DNA of 62,986 bases, the filler included, from Reticulomyxa filosa (taxonomy: Eukaryota > Protista > Foraminifera), in the NCBI GenBank assembly GCA_000512085.1. It is 17 parts of 17 records of this genome, joined end to end, with 100 filler letters (N's around TTAATTAATTAA, not from the genome) between each part and the next. Parts side by side here need not be neighbours in the genome. Positions count along the whole stretch, not along the records: positions 50,079 to 56,369 come from ASPP01005152.1; 16 more parts are not named here. The stretch is one strand, 5' to 3'. A model generated the notes under the pieces. It had not been told where the DNA came from. It saw only the letters and a program-made list of their open reading frames with translations, and made no database searches. Below are positions 9,442-58,878 of this stretch, one piece after another (within the stretch, counting starts at the first letter, position 1; each line of letters starts with the position of its first letter). The position numbers and the translations under genes were made by a program.

Positions 9442-12217
9442 TCACAACTGTGATACGCTGTAGTCGTTTCTCAAAATTCGTCTCATGATTTTGCCAGAAG
9501 CGGTCCTAGGCAACTCTTGCACAACGAACAAATCGTGCACATGGAACAAAGGATTAAGACCTTGAGTGACAAGGACTTGCAATTCTTTTTTAATTTTGTC
9601 CACATCAAATTGATTAGCAACAAATTGAATACGTATTGGAAGACTTGCAGAAGCAAGTACGTCGACAACAGCTTTAAATGGTTTGTTCCAAACAATTTTT
9701 CCATTGATAGCATAAAGCACAGACAACCGCAATTTTTGTTCATTGGCAATATTTGGATCTTCAACTTTGCTAACGATAACTCGACTAACTCCAACATTTT
9801 TGGCTGGCGCAATTTGCAATCCCAAAGGCCTCTTTTCAAAAATCCGACTGAATGTGGCCTCTGTATCTTTTGGAACAGCACAAATGACCAATTTTTCAGC
9901 ATCCACATCTTGTTGTCGATAGGCAACTGCAGCAATCTCTTTACTAAGCAGAGGATGTCTCATGACGACATTTTCGAGTCCAACGCTGCTGACTTTGATA
10001 CCACCCAAATTCATCGTGTCATCTACTCTGCCCAAATGTTGATAGTATCCATTGGGCAACACACGTAACTGGTCTCCATGTCGTCGCAATGTAATCTTCC
10101 CAGCGCCGGTTTGGATCTGATCCATACCAGTGTAGTACACATCCGTATGATTGCGATTCAAAAGCTCCACACTCAATCCGATGGATGGGCCAATGACCAC
10201 ACATTCTCCCTCAACTATGCTTCTGTCTTGCACATTGAAATAATCCCCACTTTTTTCATTGCCAATGCCAATGCCTTGTATGGGTTGGCAATCTTCCATA
10301 TCCAAAAGGATCACATTCAATCCAAAGCATGGACAGCTGAAGCTACTGAGCAATTGTGGTTGCAACATGGTTCCAGACAAGTAACCTCCGGCAATTTCTG
10401 TCCCACCGACGTATTCCATGACGGGGGAATAATGTGCTTGCGACATGACCCAGTGATATAACGTAGGATTGGAAGCTTCCCCAGTGCTGCTGAAGCGGCG
10501 AATGCAGCTCCAATCGCAATGCGAAGTGGCATTGGTGTGCATCCACGATTTGACCATGGAGGGAATGATTCCCAAATGATCAACTTTGCACAGTTCCACA
10601 AATCTGCAAAAGTCAATTGACACAGGCGACCCCACAAACAGAGCAATAGTGGCACCCAATCCCAATTGCGAGATCAGCCAAGGGCCCATCATCCATCCCA
10701 CATTGGTGGGCCATGCCACAGTGTCTCCTTGGCGTATATCTTGATGCAAATACCCATCGCTCAAGCATTTCACAAATGTCGAGTGATGCCATGGGATGCC
10801 CTTGGGTTCTCCTGTCGTTCCCGACGAGTACAGCAGATTGGCACGAGACATGGAAGATACATACACCGCCTCGGCCTTTGTTTCATCCGTATCGCGCAAA
10901 AATTCGCTCCAGCTCATGTCTCCGTCGCGCAATTTCACACACAATGCCGGCTCCTTTTGGTGTTCGCCACTGGCACTTTTGCCAGGCAACACTACACATA
11001 ACGGAGGGTTTGCACGCAACACACGTGTGTACAGTGGGATATCTTTGGCAGTGTGCACAATCACGTCTTGCGTAAAGATCAGTTTGGTATCAGCCATTCG
11101 CAAACGCACTTCAATTGCTTCTGACGCAAAGCTGTCTGCAATACTGACCACCATCATACCAGCCTTGATAATCCCTAAATAAATCGCCACTGATTCCCAC
11201 GTCATTGGCATATCAATTGCAACGGCACTGCCAACTTGCACAACTGATTTCAGTTTATGCGTCAATGCGTACGCAATTCGATTTACTGTCGCTCGCAACT
11301 CTCTCATTGATATTCTATGAATCGGTGGCTGCTTTTCGTTCGCTCGCATCTCGCTTTCGCGCATATACACGATTGCACATCGATCATCACTTCCTTGCAA
11401 TAACGTGTCGCAAATGTTCATCTTCGCTTTCGGGTAATAAATGCTTGATTCCATACCTTTGCTTATGTCTATCACGTTGTCATTCTCATTTCTTTCTTTA
11501 AATTGTATCTTCAACACTTTCGTTATTAACCTCCAAAATTCCTCGCGGTTTTCGTTCGCCCACGAAAATGTGTCCATCACATCTCTATTCATGTCCCAAT
11601 TTTTTTTTCCCCTGTTTATTCTTATTCTTTCTCTCTCTCCCCCCTCCTCTCTCCTTTCTCCTGTTCTTCATATGCAACAAACATTTTTTAAAAAAGTAGT
11701 TGTTTTTTTTTTATGTCACAATTTGCCTTTTTTTCGCGTTCCCTTGCTCCTTTAATCTCCTCTTTCTTACTTATATATTAAGTATTAGCCCTTGTTTTTT
11801 TTTTTTTTTGGTTCTAACTTTTTGTGAGTTTGTTGCATCAATCGATGCAGGTTGGTTTGTTCCTTTTCGCTTTCTGTTGGGGTCCATATATATTTGGGAC
11901 ATTTCGATTTTTGATACGTCTTGTCAAATAAATACTGATGCACTGCAAAAGGAGTTTTTGGTGACAACAACTACAAGTGCAATACACAACACCGTTTTGG
12001 AAGTTTTTTCCTTCTCGTTCTTTGCTGCCACTTCTCTCTTAGAACTGCTTTTAAAAAGGTTCTCAACTGTTTTTGAAATCGTTCGCCATTTAAGAGGAAC
12101 TGCCACTTCCGACTCAAGAACTTTTGACACCTTTGCTGCAAGATCTACTGCTGCTGACTCGTCCAGTCCACATTTTTGCAAATCAGGCACCAAGTCATGT
12201 GATTGAGTCATGATCAC
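9442..12217 (-). CDS. Acyl-activating enzyme / acyl-CoA ligase, plant AAE17/18-like; exons about 12217-12060, 11970-11830, 11611-9442
   Basis: AMP-binding motif LLYSSGTTGEPKGIPW, PTNVGWMMGPW, FSSTGEAS, EYVGGTEIAG, RRHGD, GRVDDTMNLGGIKVSS, and C-terminal LNPLFHV...LPRTASGKIMRRILR. The upstream exon PFAVHQYLF...WTP...TN fits the AAE17/18 N-terminus. Confidence 0.9.
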
Positions 12218-47250: not shown

Positions 47251-49740
47251 ATGTCATCGTTGGAGATTTTCGTAACGCTTAATTCAAAGAAGTATCGACT
47301 TGATTTAGATTCTTTAGCAATTGAAGGTCTAAAGCGACAAATCATTGAGGTGAGTGAAGATGATATGAAAGAAAGCGGATGGATTAAAATAACCAGTAGT
47401 GATGGTCACAGCATTGAAACTGATCAACAACTTCAAAAAGCTGTTGAAAATGGCCAACTTGATTTTAATGCTTATTTCCAACCAAGTTTATTTTTATGTT
47501 TCATTTAAACTGATTCAAAATATTATAAACAATAACAACAATAAATAGAAGAATTATCAATACAAAAAGAAATAATGGAAAAAAAAGAACAAGTATCATC
47601 GTTATCATGTACAATAAAACATCCATTGATATTGTTGACAGGAGCAATAAAATATGAACAACAACCATATTTGAAAAATGCAAAACAAGATCTTTATTTA
47701 TTGCAAACATTATTTCAAAATAAATTTGGCTATCAAATATTTAATACTTATGATTTGCAAAATCCAGTTACTGAATCACTTAATTTTAATGGATTGAATG
47801 AATTTATTTTGAAGCATTGCTTAAATAAAGATAATAATATTTCTTATGATGGATTGATATTTGTATGGTATGGTTATGGTAATTTTGATATTAATGAAGG
47901 AGATACAATGATCACAAGTGATAATAAGATTAAACATATTAAAGATATTCAAAATATGTTTGTAAAACAAATTGAACACTTTGTGGGAAAACCAAAGATA
48001 TTTATAAATATTGTAACCAAAAGACAAGAAGATCAAAATAAAAAAATATCAAACAAAGTGTGGTATAGTCAAGATACAGATATATTTAATATATCTATAG
48101 TTCTTAGCAATACAGAAAGTATTGATGAACATTCTTTCATTAAAACATTTTGTCAAGTTATTGAAAATAATATTGACAAAAGTTTAGATTTAATAATTAA
48201 ACAAGTAATTAAAAATGCCTGTGATCAGTCTTTAGAAGCAGACGTAGAACAAACTATTCATATTACTCATTTTACCAATATTTATTTATCTCCATCCATA
48301 TTAATGAATGACAATGATGATACAAAAAATGCAACAGAATCAATGGGAAACAATACATTAGATATTTTAAGTCTTAAAAGACACTGGGGAAGTCAATGGA
48401 GAAAAGTAAGTGCAGAGGCAACAAAAAGGGTTGAACAAATGAGAAATAAAAATGAAATTGGATTAGTTATTGTTGCAAAAAATACATATGAATGGAAAAC
48501 TATGATAAATATTAATTCAAATAAAATAAATGATAATTCTCTTCCATTATTTAGTATGTTAATTAATGATAATACTATTGAAAAAAAATTATTTGGAGAA
48601 TATTGGTTATATGTAATAAAAAGAAAATTAATAATATTTGATGAAATAAATATTGATGGAAATATATATGTAATTGATTGTGAATTTCAATATAAAAGTA
48701 ATTTTAAAAATTTACAACAAATATTTGTTACAAAAAATGCTATTATTGATCAGCAATTAAAAAAATCTATCAAAATTATTCAATGGGATGTTAAATTACA
48801 TCATGATATTCCAATACAACTTCAAGATTTTGAAGATAAAGAAAAAATATGTACTACAGAAAAAAATTTTAATGATAGTCTCATTTATTTACAAAAATAT
48901 TTACAACTTGCTATTAATACATTTGGATTAAAACATCCTTATGTTGCAATTGCATATAATATGATTGGAATTGTTCATTATTATAAAAAGGATTTTATTA
49001 ATGCAATGGAATTTTATGAGAAATCATTAAAAATTATAATAGATAATTTTGGAGAAAATTATGCTTTTGTTTCACAATTGTATCATAATATAGCTATTGT
49101 TTATGAAGATAAAAATGATTTTAATAAAGCATTTGAATATCATGAAAATGCATTAAATATTAGATCAAAACTTTTTGGGGACAATCATAATGGTGTTGCT
49201 GATTCTTGTGATTATTATGGAAATGCTTTATGTGATAATGGAAATTATAGTAAAGCCATAGAATTTTATCAAAAGGCATTAAAAATCAAATTAGATATTT
49301 TTGGAATTAATGACGAAAATGTTGGTAATTTGTACAATAATTTAGGATTTGCACATGAAAAATTAACAAAGAATGAAAAAGCAATTGAATGTTATGAAAC
49401 TGCATTAAAAATAAGATTAGCCATTTTTGGAACTAATCATATTGAAGTTGCAAAGGTATACAGCAATTTGGGAAATATATATGATGAAGAAGAGAAATAT
49501 GAACAATCCATTCGATGCTATGAACAATCATTAAATATAAGAAAATTTTTATTCGGAAATATTAACAGATCAGTTGGAGTTGCATATTGGAATTTGGGAT
49601 ACGCTTTTAAACGGAAAGGTGAAAAGAAAACTGCATGCAAATACTATGAAAATGCATGGAAAGTATACACTTTATTACAAGGCGAATGGAATAGCGAAAC
49701 AATAAGTGCAAAAGAAAATGTGAAGCAATTGCAAGAATGA
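47251..49740 (+). CDS. PB1-like + catalytically degenerate caspase-like domain + about 7 TPR repeats; exons 47251-47485, 47549-49740
   Basis: Exon 1 has the PB1-like ITSSDGHSIETDQQLQKA. Caspase-fold blocks PLILLTGAIKY...QDLYLLQTLF.NKFGY, DGLIFVWYGYG and GKPKIFINIV follow. C-terminal 42-aa TPRs (AYNMIGIVHY...A.EFYEKSLKI, FGDNHNGVA). The intron is in frame. Confidence 0.8.
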
Positions 49741-50527
49741 TCATAATTTTAAAATTTTTGCTTGTACAGTCAAATATATGATGCCCGAAAAAGCTTCAGC
49801 TGATCTTTTATTTAGTGATTGATAAATTTTCTTGTTCCTTTTTCCAAACATTTTTGTGGAGACTAAAATAATGATTGCAGTAAAATTAAAGCTTAAACTG
49901 CTTCTTGTACATTCGATAAACCAGCAAATCGAAAAAATCTTCGACAAAATATAAATGCAACAAGTTTCAAAATAGACANNNNNNNNNNNNNNNNNNNNNN
50001 NNNNNNNNNNNNNNNNNNNNNNTTAATTAATTAANNNNNNNNNNNNNNNNNNNNNNNNNNNNNNNNNNNNNNNNNNNNGTAAAGTTACAAATTATAGGGC
50101 AACACATTACCTTTTCAAATGGAGCATCCATAGTGGAAAAAAAGCCCGTGAGAAATAATATTGCACGAATAACCAATACAAAAATATTTAAAGTGGCACC
50201 AATTTTTTGGTATCTTAGTGCCTTCTTTCAAAGAGATCTATGGAAAACATTAAACTAAATTTGGGTTCGTATAAATTCCTAAAGATGCAAAAGTATCGAT
50301 AGTTTGAAGATGGCAGGGCTTTTGAAAAGCAACTTTAATTTTTCAAAATTTGTCAACAAACTCATTCTTTTAAAATTGAGTGAAATCAACTTCTTTTGAC
50401 ATGTCAAAAATGGAATCTCTACGTATTCCATACAAGATTTTGCCCAAATAAAACTTCCTTTGCTGCCAATTTTGCAATGCTAAGAAAACTTTCAAAAAAA
50501 TCAACTTTATCAACAAATTTTTTTTCT

Positions 50528-52910
50528 TTAGTAAACTGGCATCAGCTCAGAAGCACCAGGCTGCTTCGGATCCAATTTTGCAAACCATGGAACATTTTCG
50601 GTGAGATATCGATGCAATTTAGTTGCATCATTTGAATGCAAATAGAACCACGTGGAGCCAAAAAAGTCACCTCCAAGAATTCGTCCAAGCCACGAGATTT
50701 GCGATCGAACTCCACGAAGATAAAAGCAAGTGAAGTCACGCCAAACTCGACCACTTTGTTCATATTTCATTTTTGTTTGATATTTGTCATTGGTATGCCA
50801 GTAAACGGCCAAAACAAGCAATAAGAACCAGTCCATGGTCGCAAAGGCAACAGCAACGCCTGTTGAATAGAACGTTTGGTTACGGCACAAGGCATCATAC
50901 TCATCTGAATATTTCGTCTTCAGTTCGCTGGACTTTTCTTCTCCATTGGCAAGATCTCCCAGCCTTCGTCCGTCCTGCTTCTTGTTGCACAAAATATATT
51001 CTATAAATGCACGTTTTATTTTTTTTACCAAGGGGACAAAAGTTATGTTCCTGTCAGTTTTTTTTTTTAAAAAAAAAAAGAACTTGAGTGGTCATTATAA
51101 TTATTCTCCCATGTCTTATCAAAATTAAAAAACTCGACGTTTTGGAAGACTTCATGAGTGACTGAAGTCATAGCAACTGCGCTAATGAACAAAAATACCA
51201 ATGATACCGCAAAGCCAATCGTGAGCTTTCGCACGTTTTCTCGAGGCAAGCGGGTGTCACTGTCTAACTGCAATTTGTTGATTTTGTTGTCACCGCTCAA
51301 GCAACTATCACAACGTCCGTTTGGTGTAGAGCAATACCAAAGCTCAAACACATTCACCACAAATGCAATCCATAACAATGTCATTGACGGCTCTACGCAT
51401 TGCACATCCTATTCCATTTTTCAACCATTCAAAAACCCAATACACATCCCCCCCCTCCTTGTTTACTAGTGACATTTTTTACTGTACGTTTGTAGCAAAC
51501 GGTCTTTTCAAATTTGCAAAATTTGCAATACCACCACTCCTCCCCCCCTTTTTTTTTTTATGTTTAAAAACAGGCATGATCCAAAAAATTTAACTTTCTT
51601 CATATGTGCTTGATACAGCACAATGGTGGCAATACACACCCAAAACCAGATGGCAAAGGCACCATTGTAAATTGTCAAGTAAGCCACGCCAAACGCAAGT
51701 TTAAAAAGTAACATAAAAGGCAGCATTAACAACTCAAATATCCGCTTCGCTCTTCTCCAAGCGCTGTACAAAAAAAAAAAAAAAAAGTTTTCAAATTTTT
51801 TTTACAAGGACAACAAAAAAAAAATTATCAATAACAAAACCTGTTTGCCTCGGGAGGTATATATATAGCTTCCAGTGATTAGACCCAAAGGTTTCTTTTT
51901 CAGCGTTACCAATAGTGTGCAATGGAATATACGTAACATAGTCATCCGCTTTTGCGAAATCAAAAAAACGCTATTTTTATTAACAATAATAATAACAAAA
52001 AAAATTATCGCCCCCCTTTTTTTTAAAAAAAAAAAAAAAAAAATTTTGTAACTCTTTTTCGTAATTCAATTTCAATTATACAACCAACAAGCAGCAATGC
52101 AGGTACTAACACCAACACACACATCAAGAACACGGATATGTTCGGACCAGCATTAGACGTAAACAAATACTTGGCCACGGCAAAAATCAAGGAAATCAAC
52201 AAGATAAATGCGGCAGCGTACGGTGAGGTCATGGTCAATTTTGACAAACCTCTGGCTCTGCTCACAAACCGCTCTCTCACAGTCAACGCACATGTTTTCC
52301 GGTCATGATACACCGCTGTTGTCCTTACATAATTTTTATCCATATCATACATGTCACTCTGAATGTAAAAGTCACCATCTCCAACTGCTTCCTTCCAATT
52401 CACTGGAGGATGAAGCATCTCTTCCACATTTTTTGACGACCAAATCCGAACAACACTAAAGCATACGTATTTTTTTTTAAGTTCATTGAAAGCATGTCCA
52501 AAAAAAAAATATAAACATTTATAATTGTGTTGCACGTAGCTCAGTTCCGTACAAAACTTTTGCGGAAATTTTTTGACTTCGAGAATTCTTGCACACCCAA
52601 TCCGACCGCTGCACACATCCAAAACACCAAATCTTTTCTCACAAAAACCCAAATCATGTAACCCAGGCCCATTCCAAACAACAATCCGACTAACAGCAGT
52701 GTGAAGTTGTAGGTTTTTATCTATTTGTCCATTATGTATACTTTTTTTTATCCAGCAGGCAGAAAAAAAAAAAAGGGTATTTGCACGTACCTCCAACAGT
52801 ACTTCTTTTTGCGTTTCAGCTCGACCTTCTTCACCAGTCACCAATTCTGTTGTTTTAGTTTCGCCAGCTTGATTTGTCTGGACTGGTGGCTCATATTGAG
52901 GACGAGACAT
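50528..52910 (-). CDS. Hypothetical multi-pass membrane protein, about 7 exons
   Basis: ORFs 52023-52910, 51508-51771, 51067-51405 and 50528-51031 are separated by poly-A/T introns and carry about 7 hydrophobic segments. No family recognised. Confidence 0.6.
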
Positions 52911-54679
52911 TTTATATTTGAGAAAAATACTGTCAAAACAACAACTGCATAAAAAAAAATTCTTTTAACCCTTCAAAAAAACCTGTTTTTACAACAAAAA
53001 CGCTACAGTTAGTTACGTGAAAATGCAAACAGAAGAAAAATTATGTATAGTTCTAAATAAATCGGTAGAATTCCAGCTATGTAGTATAACCTTCAGACAA
53101 CAATATAAATACCGAGATATTTGAAAGGGATAGTATTAAATCACTATCATTTTCCACATCACCGCAATAAATTTTTTGTTATGATTGAAACAAAAAATTG
53201 TAAATAACTTGTTAAAATTTTTGAATAGCATTTCATTTGTGCTTGTACAATTGTGATTTCAAAAACAGCTAGCCACAGATAATTTTTTTCCTGTAAAAGT
53301 GAAAAAGTTTTCCCTTTTTAGAAAAAAGTTCTCTTGGCCTGCAAATGTGATTTGGCTCTTCTCTCTTTAAAACAGCATCCACTCAAGCTTGCACAACATG
53401 CGACTCACTTTCGAGCGTTCTTGCCAATGTGTCCCTCAGTAAAAGTGCAGCAGCTGCTGGAAAAGAAAGAGGAGAGTTAGTATAAATCCAAGACATCTGA
53501 AACAACAACATCCGAAAAGAGGTGCTATTATTGTAGTTCAAACAAATACACTTGTCGACTGTGGTCCATTTAACATTGGCAACATTCAGATTAATGTTAC
53601 ATCTCTATCTTCACAGTCGAAGCGAGGGCACCAACTCCATAGTACGTTTCACTTTCAAAATAAAAACAAACTGAATAATCAAAGTGACAAAACAGTTTAA
53701 TTTAAATTGTTTAGCCGATGAACTTAAAATATCTTTATCTATTGGGAGTAACAAATGGAAAGTGTTATGATTCGCAGAGAGAAGTTGTTTTTTTAATTTG
53801 TGAAAAAAAAAAGAAAAGATTAATCTTGGGTGTTTCGTTTGATTACAATTGACTTTCACACATACTATTTCTCATATTTATCAATTAGTCAAGAATTATA
53901 ATGTTATTTAGTTGCATAGTAGGAATTGTGGAGAAATTTAATAACAAATGACAGTTATGGTTGCCCCTTTTGTCGAAATTGTTTGATCTCTTATTTGAAT
54001 TGGAAGAAATGTCATCACAAAACTAGGCTCTTGTCTATACATAATATGACGTTCTGTAAATGTAAGAAGTTGATGCATTTAGTAATCAAGTGACAAAGGC
54101 TTTGTTGATAGAGTCAGGACGCATTGTATCAAGAAGTTTTCTAAAATATTGTTGAAATTCCTTAAACTATCCATTTAAAGCTGCGAGTAAAAGCTCTAAA
54201 ATCTTTTAACTGTGCTGTTGTTTGGACAAAGAAAAACAGTGCTTCACTTGTTTTTTCAGAACAGTGCTTGTGGTTTGTTGTTTTTTAAATTTCTGTATCA
54301 TTGCTTGTAAAAGTAGCCTGATATGACACAGTTGCAGCCATGTTTGTTTTGTTTTTTTTTTGTTTTGCTTCCTTTGACCTGAAGGAAGTTCGAAACAGTA
54401 GCTAGACAGATGTTTTCTGATAAAAAATTAGGCCTCCACTTGTGATATAGCTGATTCAAAGCGTTCGACACGATGTTAATCCATTCTCAAAAAAATATTT
54501 GATAACAACAAAATCTTTAACATCGTATGCATTGACGTGTAAAAACGGAGTGAGTTTTGGAAAATTTGGAATATCCAAAATATTAAAAATTAAAATGTAA
54601 TAAGAAAAAAAAATCATAACATTAATACTCTGCCAGAATAGTATCCTTGGAAAAATACTTAAAAATAACAGCCGACACT

Positions 54680-55101
54680 CTACCTCAACTGTCTTTTATT
54701 GTTATCCCTTGTAACGGTACAATCCATGTTTTTGTGCTTTCTGTCCGTCCACGGCACACAGTTATTTTGTTTGAAGTCGGACGAGTGTCTACCTTTCCCG
54801 TTGACTCCGGTATACACCTCAATGTGACCGTGGGTATGGGTACCTACATGCTGAAAAATCAAAATATCAACGAGGATCAAATCCGTTTCTGAAACATTTC
54901 CCGTTTCACTCCACTTTTTTTTCCATACAAATCCAACCGCTTCATAAGAGGCCCATATTGATACGCAGATCCCTTTCTACTGGTTTCGACTTTCAAAGCA
55001 GCTTCAACTGCTTCACGAACGTACTTACCACTCGTCTTGGGAGCTCTCTTTGGCACGGTTACATGTTTATTGAGCGATTTTTTTTTGCTTACCTTCACCA
55101 T
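54680..55101 (-). pseudogene. Tae3/Dae3-like (NlpC/P60-CHAP) peptidoglycan amidase, disrupted
   Basis: SGKYVREAVEAA...SAYQYGPLMKRL, a frameshift near 54933, then GF...VDILIFQHVGTHTHGHIEVYTG...SSDFKQ. Matches the bacterial pattern CAxYVRxAxEAGG...SAxDYGPxL...GF...GDxxVxQ...HPxGHxxxYxG...WxSDFxQ. Confidence 0.7.
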
Positions 55102-55485
55102 TATCAGCCGCCATCGTGGTTGACAAAGTACCAAAAAAAGCTTACAGAACACAGGACTTTTTTGCAACAGTTCTATTTGTTAAGCACTTTTTGTTTTATT
55201 TGTTGATTTTGGGTTTATTCTTCCTTATCAAATTTATTCATTTTTGTTGAAAACTAACCCTAAAAATAAACAAGAATAATTTTTTAAGTTTTTAATTTAT
55301 GTTTAAAATTACATGATCTATAATGCATAGTATGATATAAGTCTCATATTCTCTTCAGTATGATAAAACCAAGTTTGTTCCTGCGAAAGAAAAGAGTTTT
55401 TCTTTAAAAAGCAAACCTCTTTTTAGTTAGCATTCTTGTGGTAATTTTTTGACTTTCCGTAAATTGTGAAAAAGAAAAGTGGAAC

Positions 55486-56305
55486 ATGGCACAAGCTCCA
55501 ACGACCACTGAAAATAATGCGACCACTCGTTTTGACGAGATCAAGAAAATGGGCTTTGTTTCTCAAACGAACTTTTTCGTAAATGTTTGGTGGTCGAACC
55601 TTGTAAAGAATGACGAGCACAAAAACGCTATCGTATTGGTATTGGGCAAATTTCACGAGCAGAACATCAAATTTGGAGCACCGCCAAATTGTATTTCTTC
55701 TGTTCAGGTGTGTTGGCTTTGGAATACCTTAAAGAAGGAAAAGAAATTTTGTTTTTATTGAAAGTTTATAATTTACATTGGATATCTAGTGCCTGCCAAT
55801 GTGCGAACACAATACAGTTTTGCCACATATTGCAACAATTGGAAAAGAACAATGAATTAATTGGCATTGCATTCCAAAATGGTGACAGAACAAAAATAGG
55901 AAAAAGATTTGTCAGTTGCGGCATAGCAAAATTGTACGGTTTTCTTTTTTTTAGAAAAGGGCAAATCTAGGTTCGATTTTGTGGGACGGGACGTACACAA
56001 AAAAAAAAATTTTCAAAACGCGGAATTAAAAATGTTTTGAACTTTGGAATGTGAATGTTTGGACAGTTCAGAGGTTACTTTGCTGGAAGCATACATATTT
56101 TTGTTCACTCTAAACGTCAACGAGCTCATGACAAAACCTTCCACTCCTTGTGAAGAAGCCGTTCGCAAAGCGAAAACTGACCTGGCAGCTCTTGAAGCAC
56201 GTCAAAAAGAGATCTTAGGTAAAAAGGAAGCTCTGGAAGCGAAAATAGAAAAAAACAAATCCGAACACAATTTGTCACCAATTCAAGTAGCGCAAACGCA
56301 ACAGG
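55486..56305 (+). CDS. 34-kDa calcium-regulated actin-bundling protein (ABP34/abpB)-like, multi-exon, 3' truncated, possibly disrupted
   Basis: RFDEIKKMGFVSQTNFFVNVWW resembles ABP34 FxxVAKLPFSQQAVHFLNAYW; EVTLLEAYIFLF...EEAVRKAKTDLAALEARQKEI resembles RVSFLEYLL...PEIKKARLALEEV. In-frame TGA near 56038. Confidence 0.55.
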
Positions 56306-56469
56306 TACGTTACTCCCCTCTTTCTCTTTTGTTTAAATGTAAGGTTGAATAAATTTTGGCAACACTCAANNNNNNNNNNNNNNNNNNNNNNNNNNNNNNN
56401 NNNNNNNNNNNNNTTAATTAATTAANNNNNNNNNNNNNNNNNNNNNNNNNNNNNNNNNNNNNNNNNNNN

Positions 56470-57603
56470 AAAAAAAAAAAAAAGCACCTTCATTTTATTT
56501 AAATCAATGTCATTACCCATTTCTTGTAGATCTTTATAAATATTTTCGGCTTGTCTTTTTTCTGCTTCTTCTTCCATCCATTTTCTCTCCTTTTCAGTTT
56601 CTTTTCTCATCCACTCTTTCACTCTTGTTTTTAAATGTATTGTTTCGTTACTCGTGATATAATGTGATCCAATAATATGCACAAATACAGCATCTGTACT
56701 CAATATTCCAATACAACCAGTCAATGCGATATGTAAATTTTGTTCAAACTTCATCCATGTATTATCCTTTATTGAGTATCTATGCACCAATTTCGAATCA
56801 GTCACAGTACTAATTCCACCAAAAAATAAGATAACGTCATTGATTTGAACATAGAAATAATCAGTCACTTTTCTCATTGTTGTACAAATTGGCACTTTGA
56901 AGAATTGAAATGTATTATTTTGTTCATCATATTCAATTGACAATCCCATATTACCACAAAATAAAAGCATTTCAGTTTTGTTTTTGTTTGATGATTCATT
57001 TTTCGTTTTTTTCACAAAACAATGATGCCATGATAATATGTTAAACGATAAAGCCTGCTGCTTAACAATTTGATATTTATTCAAATCATAAACAGAAATA
57101 TTCTTTGGACGATGAGCGATGAATAATAAGTGATTGTTGCTTCCACCAATCACCGCACGTGCTCCTTCATAATCATCTTTTTTTCTTCCAATTTCAATAG
57201 AAACATGGAAGTTGTCAGTCCAAGGAATCCATTTATTGTATTGGATTATGTTTTCTTTTTTATTTTGTTCTGTGTTGTCCCAAACACTTTTATATTTCAT
57301 TACCAATACATGTTTATTTTCTCCACCAAAAGATAATAAAGTAATTATATTCGAATTGTTGTTATTTATGCGCTTCACTACACAATGTCTGACTAATTCG
57401 ATTGAATCTGGGTAAGAACAAATCAACTTGTATTGATTTTTAAGTGTATGGTACGAATAGCAATCGCGATTATTATAACCTCCACAAATAAGAATTTCGT
57501 TTTTGTGACTCACACATTGAAATCTCTCAAAATGAGAAGGCAAAGAAGGCAAGGTTTGGAAAAGGGTTTCAGATTCTTCTAATTTGGTATCATTTAGAGT
57601 CAT
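56470..57603 (-). CDS. Kelch-repeat beta-propeller protein (lineage-expanded type), 3' truncated
   Basis: FQTLPSLP...QCVSHKNEILICGG...CYSYHTLKNQYKLICSYP, LLSFGG, RAVIGGSNNHLLFI, VILFFGG...VHRYSIKDNTWMKF, then a coiled coil. Confidence 0.85.
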
Positions 57604-57883
57604 TCTAAATAAAAAGCCAAAGGTGATTGAGTATGATTTTATTCTTTGAGTTTTTTTTTTTGTATTTATAAAAATCCTTTTAAAAAAAAATTGTTGAATT
57701 GAATGCAATTTATTTACTAAGAATCAAATTTTGCAAACTGATTTCTTTCAATGCATTGGATGAATCTTTATGATTATCATCACAAATTTCTATTATACAA
57801 TGAAATAGCAGTGAAACAAGCTCTTACAAAAACAAATCACAAATGAGCAATTTATAAGGACATTTATTTGAGTATTGACTTCA

Positions 57884-58878
57884 CTATCCCCAAATACGAA
57901 TAAAATCATTACATGAGTAACACAAATCAATATTACAATCAATATCATTGCTTTTTTTTTTCTTTTTATTCAAAAATTTAAAACATGTTATTACAACATC
58001 TTTTACACTTTCTTTTCCATCTTCTTCTTCTTCTTCTTTGATCAAATATAATTCCTTCTTATTTGATCGAATATCCCAAAATCGAATTGTATTATCCCAT
58101 GATCCAGAACATATCACATTTGAATTACCATCAATCTCGATATTATTTACTATAAATGGTGCATATCCAACATAAGCTATATCTCTTAAATGTCCATTAA
58201 ACACTTGAATTTGATCATTTGATCGAATATCCCACAAACGAATACTTTTATCATTTGATCCAGATAATATTGTATTTATTAATTCATTTGATCCATATTT
58301 TACACTATTTACACAATCTGTATGTCCTTTGTATACATTGAATTGTTTGGTTGTTTCAATATCCCATATTCGAATGGTTTTATCAAATGATCCAGAACAA
58401 ATAGTATATCCATTACCACCAATCACACCAATTTTATTAGTTTTATTATCATTATTGCCTTGCAATGGTGAAATATCAACACACCGAACAGTATCTTCAT
58501 GTCCATTGAAAATATGTAATGATTTTGATGTTTCAACATCCCATAAACGAATTTTTTTGTCATATGATCCAGAACACAAATACCTACCATTATTAAATGA
58601 CGAAAATTCAATGCAACAAACGCCATTACTATGTCCCTTAAATATTTTCAATTGTTGATTATTATTGAAATCCCAAAAACGAATAGTACCGTCCGATGAT
58701 GAAGAACAAATGACATGACAACAATTATTATAATAATGATATTGTGAAAATTTCACACAATTAACATCACTTGAATGTCCATTAAATGATTGAATTTGTT
58801 TATTGTTGTCAATATCCCATAAACAAACTGTATCATCATCTGATCCAGAACAAATGAATTGATTATCATCAAATGTGA
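57884..58878 (-). CDS. WD40-repeat protein, 5' truncated
   Basis: Repeated GH...V..V.FS...ICSGSxDKTIRxWD units (about 6 visible). Confidence 0.95.

What the first reader, a model, noticed from the sequence alone, without database searches (positions are those of the whole stretch)
54680..55101. Candidate domesticated T6SS amidase effector (Tae3/Dae3-like) hidden across a frameshift
Adding one base at about 54933 (GG to GGG) fuses two ORFs into MVKVSKKKSLNKHV...TSGKYVREAVEAA...SAYQYGPLMKRLGFVWKKKW...VDILIFQHVGTHTHGHIEVYTGVNGKGRHSSDFKQNNCVPW, about 140 aa. The motif order matches bacterial Tae3-type cell-wall amidases: YVRxAxEA, SAxxYGPxL, GF, (G)DxxxxQ, HxHGHI (catalytic His), SDFxQ. The catalytic CA before YVR is missing (apparent short in-frame deletion) and GD reads VD, so this copy looks dead. 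It lies between intron-containing eukaryotic genes in one contig, so it is not simple contamination. Tae-derived dae genes are known in several eukaryotes as antibacterial factors, but I do not know of a report from Foraminifera. A pseudogene implies intact paralogs now or in the past, possibly used to lyse bacterial prey (inference).
Basis: partly seen in the sequence, partly recalled or inferred. Interest (0 to 1): 0.82.

Follow-up and report, generated by a model that had tools for sequence, protein, structure and literature searches.

The report
Dead bacterial wall-cutting gene in protist
This is a broken copy of a bacterial-type cell-wall-cutting enzyme gene (Tae3 family) lying between host genes of a single-celled eukaryote, likely a foraminiferan; its closest intact relatives include a ciliate protein, so it is likely a relic of an enzyme that protists took up and would use against the bacteria they eat.

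Summary
The homology is real. Intact relatives of the C-terminal piece match Tae3 of Ralstonia pickettii (4HZ9) by profile (E 2.4e-18) and by predicted fold (E 9e-9). The gene starts at ATG 55114 in another frame. It has at least three breaks: an in-frame TAA, a frameshift at the catalytic Cys codon (not an in-frame deletion), and the frameshift near 54933. Several near-invariant residues are also changed, so it is a pseudogene. It lies on a 6.3-kb contig between host-style genes; the window is 17 joined contigs. In trees it groups with unnamed short-contig proteins and a Halteria (ciliate) protein, apart from the bacterial rows (97/93 and 93/90; long branches). The window and four of those proteins share a 4-residue loop insert absent from the bacterial rows. 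No intact paralog could be sought in this genome, as no assembly or reads were held. A T6SS donor is not shown: the family also holds non-T6SS and phage-context members. New member of a known kind; modest interest.

The parts
54680..55114 (-). Whole Tae3-like amidase pseudogene, ATG 55114 to TAG 54682-54680, about 144 codons, no intron seen
   Evidence: read with X at the breaks it scores 121 bits on a profile of its near relatives and 58.5 bits on a profile of 40 bacterial genome rows
55031..55114 (-). N-terminal piece (first helix of the fold), with an in-frame TAA at 55069-55067; no hydrophobic signal peptide
   Evidence: 0, 2, 4 of 1000 shuffles reach its score; maximum 10-residue hydropathy -0.55; upstream frame closed
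55029..55030 (-). Break 1: frameshift at the codon of the catalytic Cys
   Evidence: column is Cys in 94 of 94 family rows with a residue there; context is not a homopolymer
54934..55029 (-). Middle piece in a second frame: YVREA helix and SAYQYGP motif
54915..54933 (-). Break 2: one-base frameshift, best placed at the GF motif, possibly in the A8 run
   Evidence: 115.3 versus 111.3 bits on the near profile
54683..54931 (-). C-terminal piece: GD motif changed to VD (54871), GH with the catalytic His (54826), 4-residue loop insert, SDFKQ (54781); tail departs from the family's YR end
50531..52910 (-). Downstream host gene or genes (membrane-protein-like ORFs; introns inferred from GT..AG and long A/T runs)
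   Evidence: no Pfam or NCBIfam name
55486..56369 (+). Divergent upstream host gene (introns inferred; coiled-coil exon near 56130-56306), cut by the contig end
   Evidence: (DUF7491 weak, E 5e-4, under cutoff)
50079..56369 (.). The contig that holds the locus (6291 bases, GC 0.353)
   Evidence: trinucleotide correlation with the rest of the window 0.964

Best explanation
This is a dead nuclear copy of a Tae3-type papain-fold amidase gene, likely descended from a lineage of such genes already carried by protists, whose intact product would have cut bacterial peptidoglycan. Shown: homology to Tae3, the three breaks, loss of the catalytic Cys, and the place between host-style genes. Inferred from the family: the intact enzyme used Cys and His (with Ser as third residue in Tae3) to cleave peptide cross-links of the cell wall. 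Inferred: with no signal peptide and no injection machine, it would act on engulfed, already permeabilised bacteria or on wall debris, as digestion or defence. Inferred from the tree: the gene reached eukaryotes once or a few times, from a bacterium or phage that need not have used it as a T6SS effector, and this copy then decayed. The present sequence cannot make an active enzyme.
For: Profile of six near relatives hits 4HZ9 at E 2.4e-18. The model of intact relative P0005 (pLDDT over 90 for 118 residues) has 4HZ9/4HZB as its only matches under E 0.001, next best 0.011. Stop and break 1 are not in homopolymers. Near-invariant columns are changed: G to V (94 of 95), G to D (72 of 94), Y to T (77 of 88). 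TAA is not read as Gln on this contig: 0 TAA/TAG against 20 CAA/CAG in three in-frame flanking ORFs. Tree: window + P0004/5/6/8/9 + Halteria 97/93 among 46 rows; window + P0005/6 + Halteria 93/90 among 30 rows. Loop of 14 residues between GH and SD in the window and 4 near relatives, against 10 in 82 of 93 measurable rows. GC 0.43 equals host exons at 0.41-0.43. Three proteins from another contig of the window are held by eukprot.
Against: Only one member of the group (Halteria) has a named organism; P0004-P0009 are unnamed singletons on contigs of 582-1592 bases, and their eukaryotic origin is a guess from sequence style. They were picked by likeness to the window. All are long branches on 137 columns. 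P0009 left the group in the 30-row tree, though holding it in is not rejected (p-AU 0.48). Halteria lacks the 4-residue insert (11 residues). No intron in the gene. The codon-usage test was inconclusive (8 of 40 bacterial homologues fit the host as well or better). No reads, no RNA and no whole genome were available.
Confidence: 0.7

Rival explanations
1. A piece of bacterial or phage DNA from an unsampled lineage was inserted on its own and decayed without ever working in the host.
For: No intron; no intact same-organism paralog among 1.84 billion representatives (best real hit 51% identical); the near relatives are unnamed; the group's weak sister is a set of phage-context proteins (61/85 and 60/89).
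Against: No other bacterial gene on the contig; the gene runs cleanly from ATG to stop between AT-rich host spacers (GC 0.27 and 0.31); it groups with a ciliate protein.
Confidence: 0.15
2. The gene is intact in the organism and the breaks are errors of a fragmented draft assembly.
For: Break 2 lies at or near short homopolymers; the window's contigs are short and often end at long A/T runs; His, SDF and most motifs are kept.
Against: It needs three separate errors in 150 bases, two outside homopolymers, one exactly at the Cys codon, plus substitutions at near-invariant columns; ORFs of 186-295 codons on the same contig are open.
Confidence: 0.1
3. The contig is a chimera or comes from a contaminant (bacterium or ciliate prey).
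For: Draft assembly of a bacterivore; no reads to check the joins (one search listed none).
Against: Composition matches the rest of the window (r 0.964); host-type A/T runs on both sides; the standard code is used, not the ciliate code; a decayed gene is unlikely in a chance contaminant join.
Confidence: 0.05

Closest known systems
Tae3 of Ralstonia pickettii (PDB 4HZ9/4HZB), T6SS amidase effector family 3
   Same: Same sequence family and predicted fold; same motif order; His and SDF kept. PMC10318531 (passages) names 4HZ9 as Tae3 with a Cys-His-Ser triad that cleaves peptidoglycan.
   Different: No Cys, three breaks, no immunity gene or T6SS gene on the contig, eukaryotic setting, 4-residue loop insert with Tyr/Phe/His in place of the family's Trp before SDF.
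Domesticated amidase effectors (dae genes): tick Dae2, Nematostella Dae4; dae3 of Chou et al. 2015 (recalled, paper not held)
   Same: A Tae-family gene in a eukaryotic genome without a secretion machine. One of two Nematostella tae4 homologues also lacks the catalytic Cys (10.1101/2021.05.13.443009, passages).
   Different: Tae3 rather than Tae2/Tae4 type; dead; no signal peptide; no activity or expression data. Whether it falls in a published dae3 clade could not be tested, as no named dae3 sequence was in hand.
Halteria grandinella FGO68_gene3957 (TNV75875.1, 'CHAP domain-containing protein')
   Same: Only named member of the window's group in the trees; 32% identical over 121 columns; single domain, no leader.
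   Different: Intact Cys; lacks the 4-residue insert; ciliate.
Laterally acquired NlpC/P60 hydrolases of Trichomonas vaginalis
   Same: Protist use of a bacterial papain-fold wall hydrolase against bacteria (10.1101/320382, passages).
   Different: Another branch of the superfamily (6BIQ matches the model only at E 0.065, 15% identity); shown to be active.

Membership tests
Tae3-like amidase sequence family | Sequence and fold closest to Tae3 among solved structures | tested here: met
   window piece alone: 4HZ9 top hit but E 1; via intact relatives
Tae3-like amidase sequence family | Catalytic Cys at the start of the first conserved helix | tested here: not met
   frameshift at that codon; Cys in 94 of 94 other rows with a residue in the column
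Tae3-like amidase sequence family | Catalytic His in GH and the SDF motif | tested here: met
   that the Ser of SDF is the triad Ser is my inference
T6SS effector Tae3 (functional sense) | Adjacent immunity gene and T6SS delivery context | tested here: not met
   flanking ORFs have no such Pfam or NCBIfam match; eukaryotic contig
T6SS effector Tae3 (functional sense) | Descent from a T6SS-linked donor | tested here: inconclusive
   donor unresolved; nesting with six bacterial rows chosen after seeing the tree is rejected (p-AU 0.01)
dae (domesticated amidase effector) | Resides in a eukaryotic genome among host genes | tested here: met
   joins not checked by reads
dae (domesticated amidase effector) | Intact, expressed gene under purifying selection | tested here: not met
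   stop and two frameshifts; expression not testable
dae (domesticated amidase effector) | Signal peptide or intron gained | tested here: not met
   (simple hydropathy scan only); alignment is colinear with intronless relatives
dae (domesticated amidase effector) | Peptidoglycan hydrolysis by the product | not testable with these tools
   needs a bench assay on an intact relative
dae3 clades of Chou et al. 2015 (recalled) | Groups with the published eukaryotic dae3 sequences | not testable with these tools
   paper not held; no named dae3 sequence returned by any search

The most novel reading that the evidence does not exclude
The window marks an old, undescribed protist clade of Tae3-like wall amidases, with its own loop insert and added leaders (signal peptide with Cys-rich region, Cys-pair N-terminus), shared by foraminifera and ciliates through one early transfer in the SAR lineage or a protist-to-protist transfer, possibly from a phage lysin rather than a T6SS effector, and still active in bacterivorous protists.
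Probability: 0.3. Interest if true: 0.6.

Novelty: new member of a known kind. Interest (0 to 1): 0.35.

Why it matters
The copy itself is dead and does nothing. Its value is as a pointer. It would extend Tae-derived genes to Rhizaria, and it leads to intact, unnamed relatives (P0004-P0009) that may be digestive or defensive enzymes of bacterivorous protists. If these and the ciliate gene are one clade, the number and age of tae3 transfers to eukaryotes would need recounting.

Tried and rejected
Whole-genome paralog search: no genome held. Sequencing runs: none was listed, no RNA holder listed; not evidence either way. Word-based homolog search with the C-terminal piece: no candidate; with alignment A1 it returned only 3 of its own 6 members. 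Pfam, NCBIfam and PHROGs do not name the window's pieces. Phage tblastn gave only weak hits (best E 0.05, a Campylobacter phage protein that does belong to the family) and none for P0006. P0003 and P0010 are repeat proteins and were dropped. Splicing as a rescue: rejected by inspection, since both breaks are losses against the family and GTAAG at 55093 and 55028 fall in aligned coding sequence. Ciliate code TAA=Gln: rejected. Second copy in the window: none. Pairwise BLASTP of the 28-residue N-terminal piece with the Halteria protein found no alignment; support for that piece rests on the profile test. Codon-usage test inconclusive; one flanking row (+55487) was out of frame and is ignored. 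One search used wrong frames and is superseded. The loop count was a faulty pattern and is superseded. The 93-row tree finished only in quick mode (group support SH-aLRT 92). Literature: nine searches listed no paper on a Tae3/dae gene in foraminifera; one search gave 0 papers with all four terms. Earlier scan notes: none on this family.

Full report
Setting. The window is not one piece of DNA. It is 17 contigs of 1.0-16.5 kb joined by 100-base N linkers that hold TTAATTAATTAA. The locus lies on the contig 50079-56369, between a minus-strand host gene starting at 52910 and a plus-strand gene starting at 55486. Their introns are inferred from sequence only. The contig's trinucleotide make-up matches the rest of the window (r 0.964). 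Three of ten window ORFs looked up exactly are in the collection, with eukprot among their sources; all three lie on another contig. The organism is likely the foraminiferan Reticulomyxa filosa. That rests on unchecked earlier scan notes and on the fit of contig sizes to a published table row (N50 3609; PMC13746701, passages). I did not test it directly. No whole genome and no sequencing run was available.

Is it Tae3-like? The C-terminal piece alone is weak: no Pfam match, 4HZ9 as top PDB hit at E 1. The atlas gave CHAP and NLPC_P60-bearing clusters at 0.92-0.95. A phmmer search of 1.84 billion representatives gave 8 hits: 2 repeat proteins, dropped, and 6 real relatives (P0004-P0009, 42-51% identical over the match). 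The four that cover the N-terminal half all have the catalytic Cys. A profile of these six hits 4HZ9 at E 2.4e-18, next hit 0.012. P0006 alone hits it at E 3e-9. A 58-sequence profile hits it at E 2e-43, then phage endolysin CHAP domains at 2.5e-5 to 0.01. The AlphaFold model of P0005 has the Tae3 entries as its only three matches under E 0.001. PMC10318531 (passages) and PMC6099711 (passages) identify this structure as the Tae3 amidase of R. pickettii, and the former gives a Cys-His-Ser triad. The family assignment is secure.

Anatomy. The relatives hit two frames of the window. A third stretch, from ATG 55114, matches their first helix. With profiles built without the window (97 unique rows; 40 bacterial genome rows; 7 near rows), this N-terminal piece is reached by 2, 4 and 0 of 1000 shuffles. 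The gene thus runs from 55114 to 54680 and has an in-frame TAA at 55069-55067, a frameshift at the catalytic Cys codon (55030-55029) and a frameshift near 54933. The stop and the first frameshift are not in homopolymers. Near-invariant columns are changed too: G to V (94 of 95 rows have G), G to D (72 of 94), and Y to T in the terminal YR (77 of 88). His and SDF are kept. TAA is not a Gln codon here. There is no signal peptide by a simple hydropathy scan and no second copy in the window. The sequence as assembled cannot give an active enzyme.

Kinship. P0006 retrieved a Halteria grandinella protein. Scans with a four-sequence alignment gave 40 loci from prokaryotic genomes and 52 from metagenomes; P0006 gave 2 viral loci and Psychrobacter plasmid genes. 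In a careful 46-row tree the window, P0004/5/6/8/9 and Halteria form one side of a 97/93 branch (46 of 98 rows chosen by me to span the quick tree, P0007 left out). In a 30-row tree without P0004 and P0008, the window, P0005, P0006 and Halteria stay together at 93/90 and P0009 moves away weakly. Holding P0009 in is not rejected (p-AU 0.48). Forcing the window among six bacterial rows is rejected (p-AU 0.01), but that set was named after seeing the tree. The stretch between GH and SD has 10 residues in 82 of 93 measurable rows, 14 in the window and P0004/5/6/9, 13 in P0007, 23 in P0008, 11 in Halteria and 20 in three phage-context rows; 5 of 98 rows could not be measured. Against over-reading: the branches are long, the alignment has 137-138 columns, the near rows were picked by likeness to the window, and only Halteria is named. 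That P0004-P0009 are eukaryotic is my guess from their leaders and short contigs.

Donor. I scanned 27 of the 40 domain-bearing ORFs from genomes and 48 of 76 flanking ORFs. Four are PAAR fusions (L007, L011, L016, L021). Three follow a VgrG gene (L037, L041, L044). One follows DUF2345 (L009), one has a PAAR neighbour (L042), and one carries RHS repeats (L033). Others carry SH3, PG-binding or phage lysozyme domains with no T6SS mark seen. The weak sister of the window's group (61/85, 60/89) is a set of low-GC metagenome rows; the two with longer contigs lie beside phage tail fibre, resolvase or SSB genes. 'T6SS effector' is thus one use of this family, and the donor is open.

How it would have worked. 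By the family's chemistry, the intact product would cleave peptide links of peptidoglycan through Cys and His (inference from Tae3). Eukaryotic Dae enzymes keep wall-degrading activity but cannot cross a Gram-negative outer membrane unaided (10.1101/2020.04.10.036376, passages). Nematostella Dae4 kills Gram-positive bacteria (10.1101/2021.05.13.443009, passages). In a bacterivore the likely use is on engulfed prey. This is untested, and the lack of a signal peptide leaves the route to the prey unexplained; Halteria's protein and P0006 lack one too, while P0005 has a hydrophobic leader.

Novelty. Tae genes are known to have moved to eukaryotes several times. I recall that the 2015 paper of Chou et al. 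lists dae3 genes in a ciliate and in marine invertebrates. It was not held, and its supplement, which I could not see, may list this organism. Nine searches (listings only, except the papers named above, 10.1101/320382 and PMC13071891, read as passages) showed no report from foraminifera. Verdict: a real, dead, Tae3-like gene in a protist; a new member of a known kind. Its main worth is as a lead to an intact protist clade. Interest 0.35.

Noticed in passing
window 1551-60647, 16 linkers: The window is a concatenation of 17 short contigs with 100-base N linkers containing TTAATTAATTAA; neighbourhood arguments hold only within a contig.
   Followed up: yes
L052:762-1151, L054, L060:3929-4321, L067:3422-3856, L068: A well-supported low-GC subgroup of Tae3-like proteins; L060 and L067 lie beside phage-type genes, so they are likely small phage lysins of this family.
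   Followed up: partly
L007, L011, L016, L021 (domain ORFs): PAAR-Tae3 fusions in Polyangiales and a delta-proteobacterial genome.
   Followed up: partly
L037:2986-5823, L041:2824-5553, L044:2929-5607: Tae3-like domain fused to a C-terminal muramidase or glucosaminidase behind VgrG in enterobacteria: likely two-enzyme wall effectors.
   Followed up: no
P0005 residues 1-80; P0008 residues 1-130: Intact near relatives with added N-terminal parts: a hydrophobic leader, Cys-rich region and Pro-rich linker (P0005); two CxxC pairs and a low-complexity linker (P0008).
   Followed up: partly
window 9445-11592 (-): Single-exon 716-residue ORF that looks like an acyl-CoA synthetase (by eye, not scanned), with an apparent insert near its C-terminus.
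   Followed up: no
window 47575-49737 (+), 56470-58878: TPR-like, Kelch and WD40 repeat genes of the kind I recall as expanded in this host; Kelch and WD40 confirmed by Pfam.
   Followed up: partly
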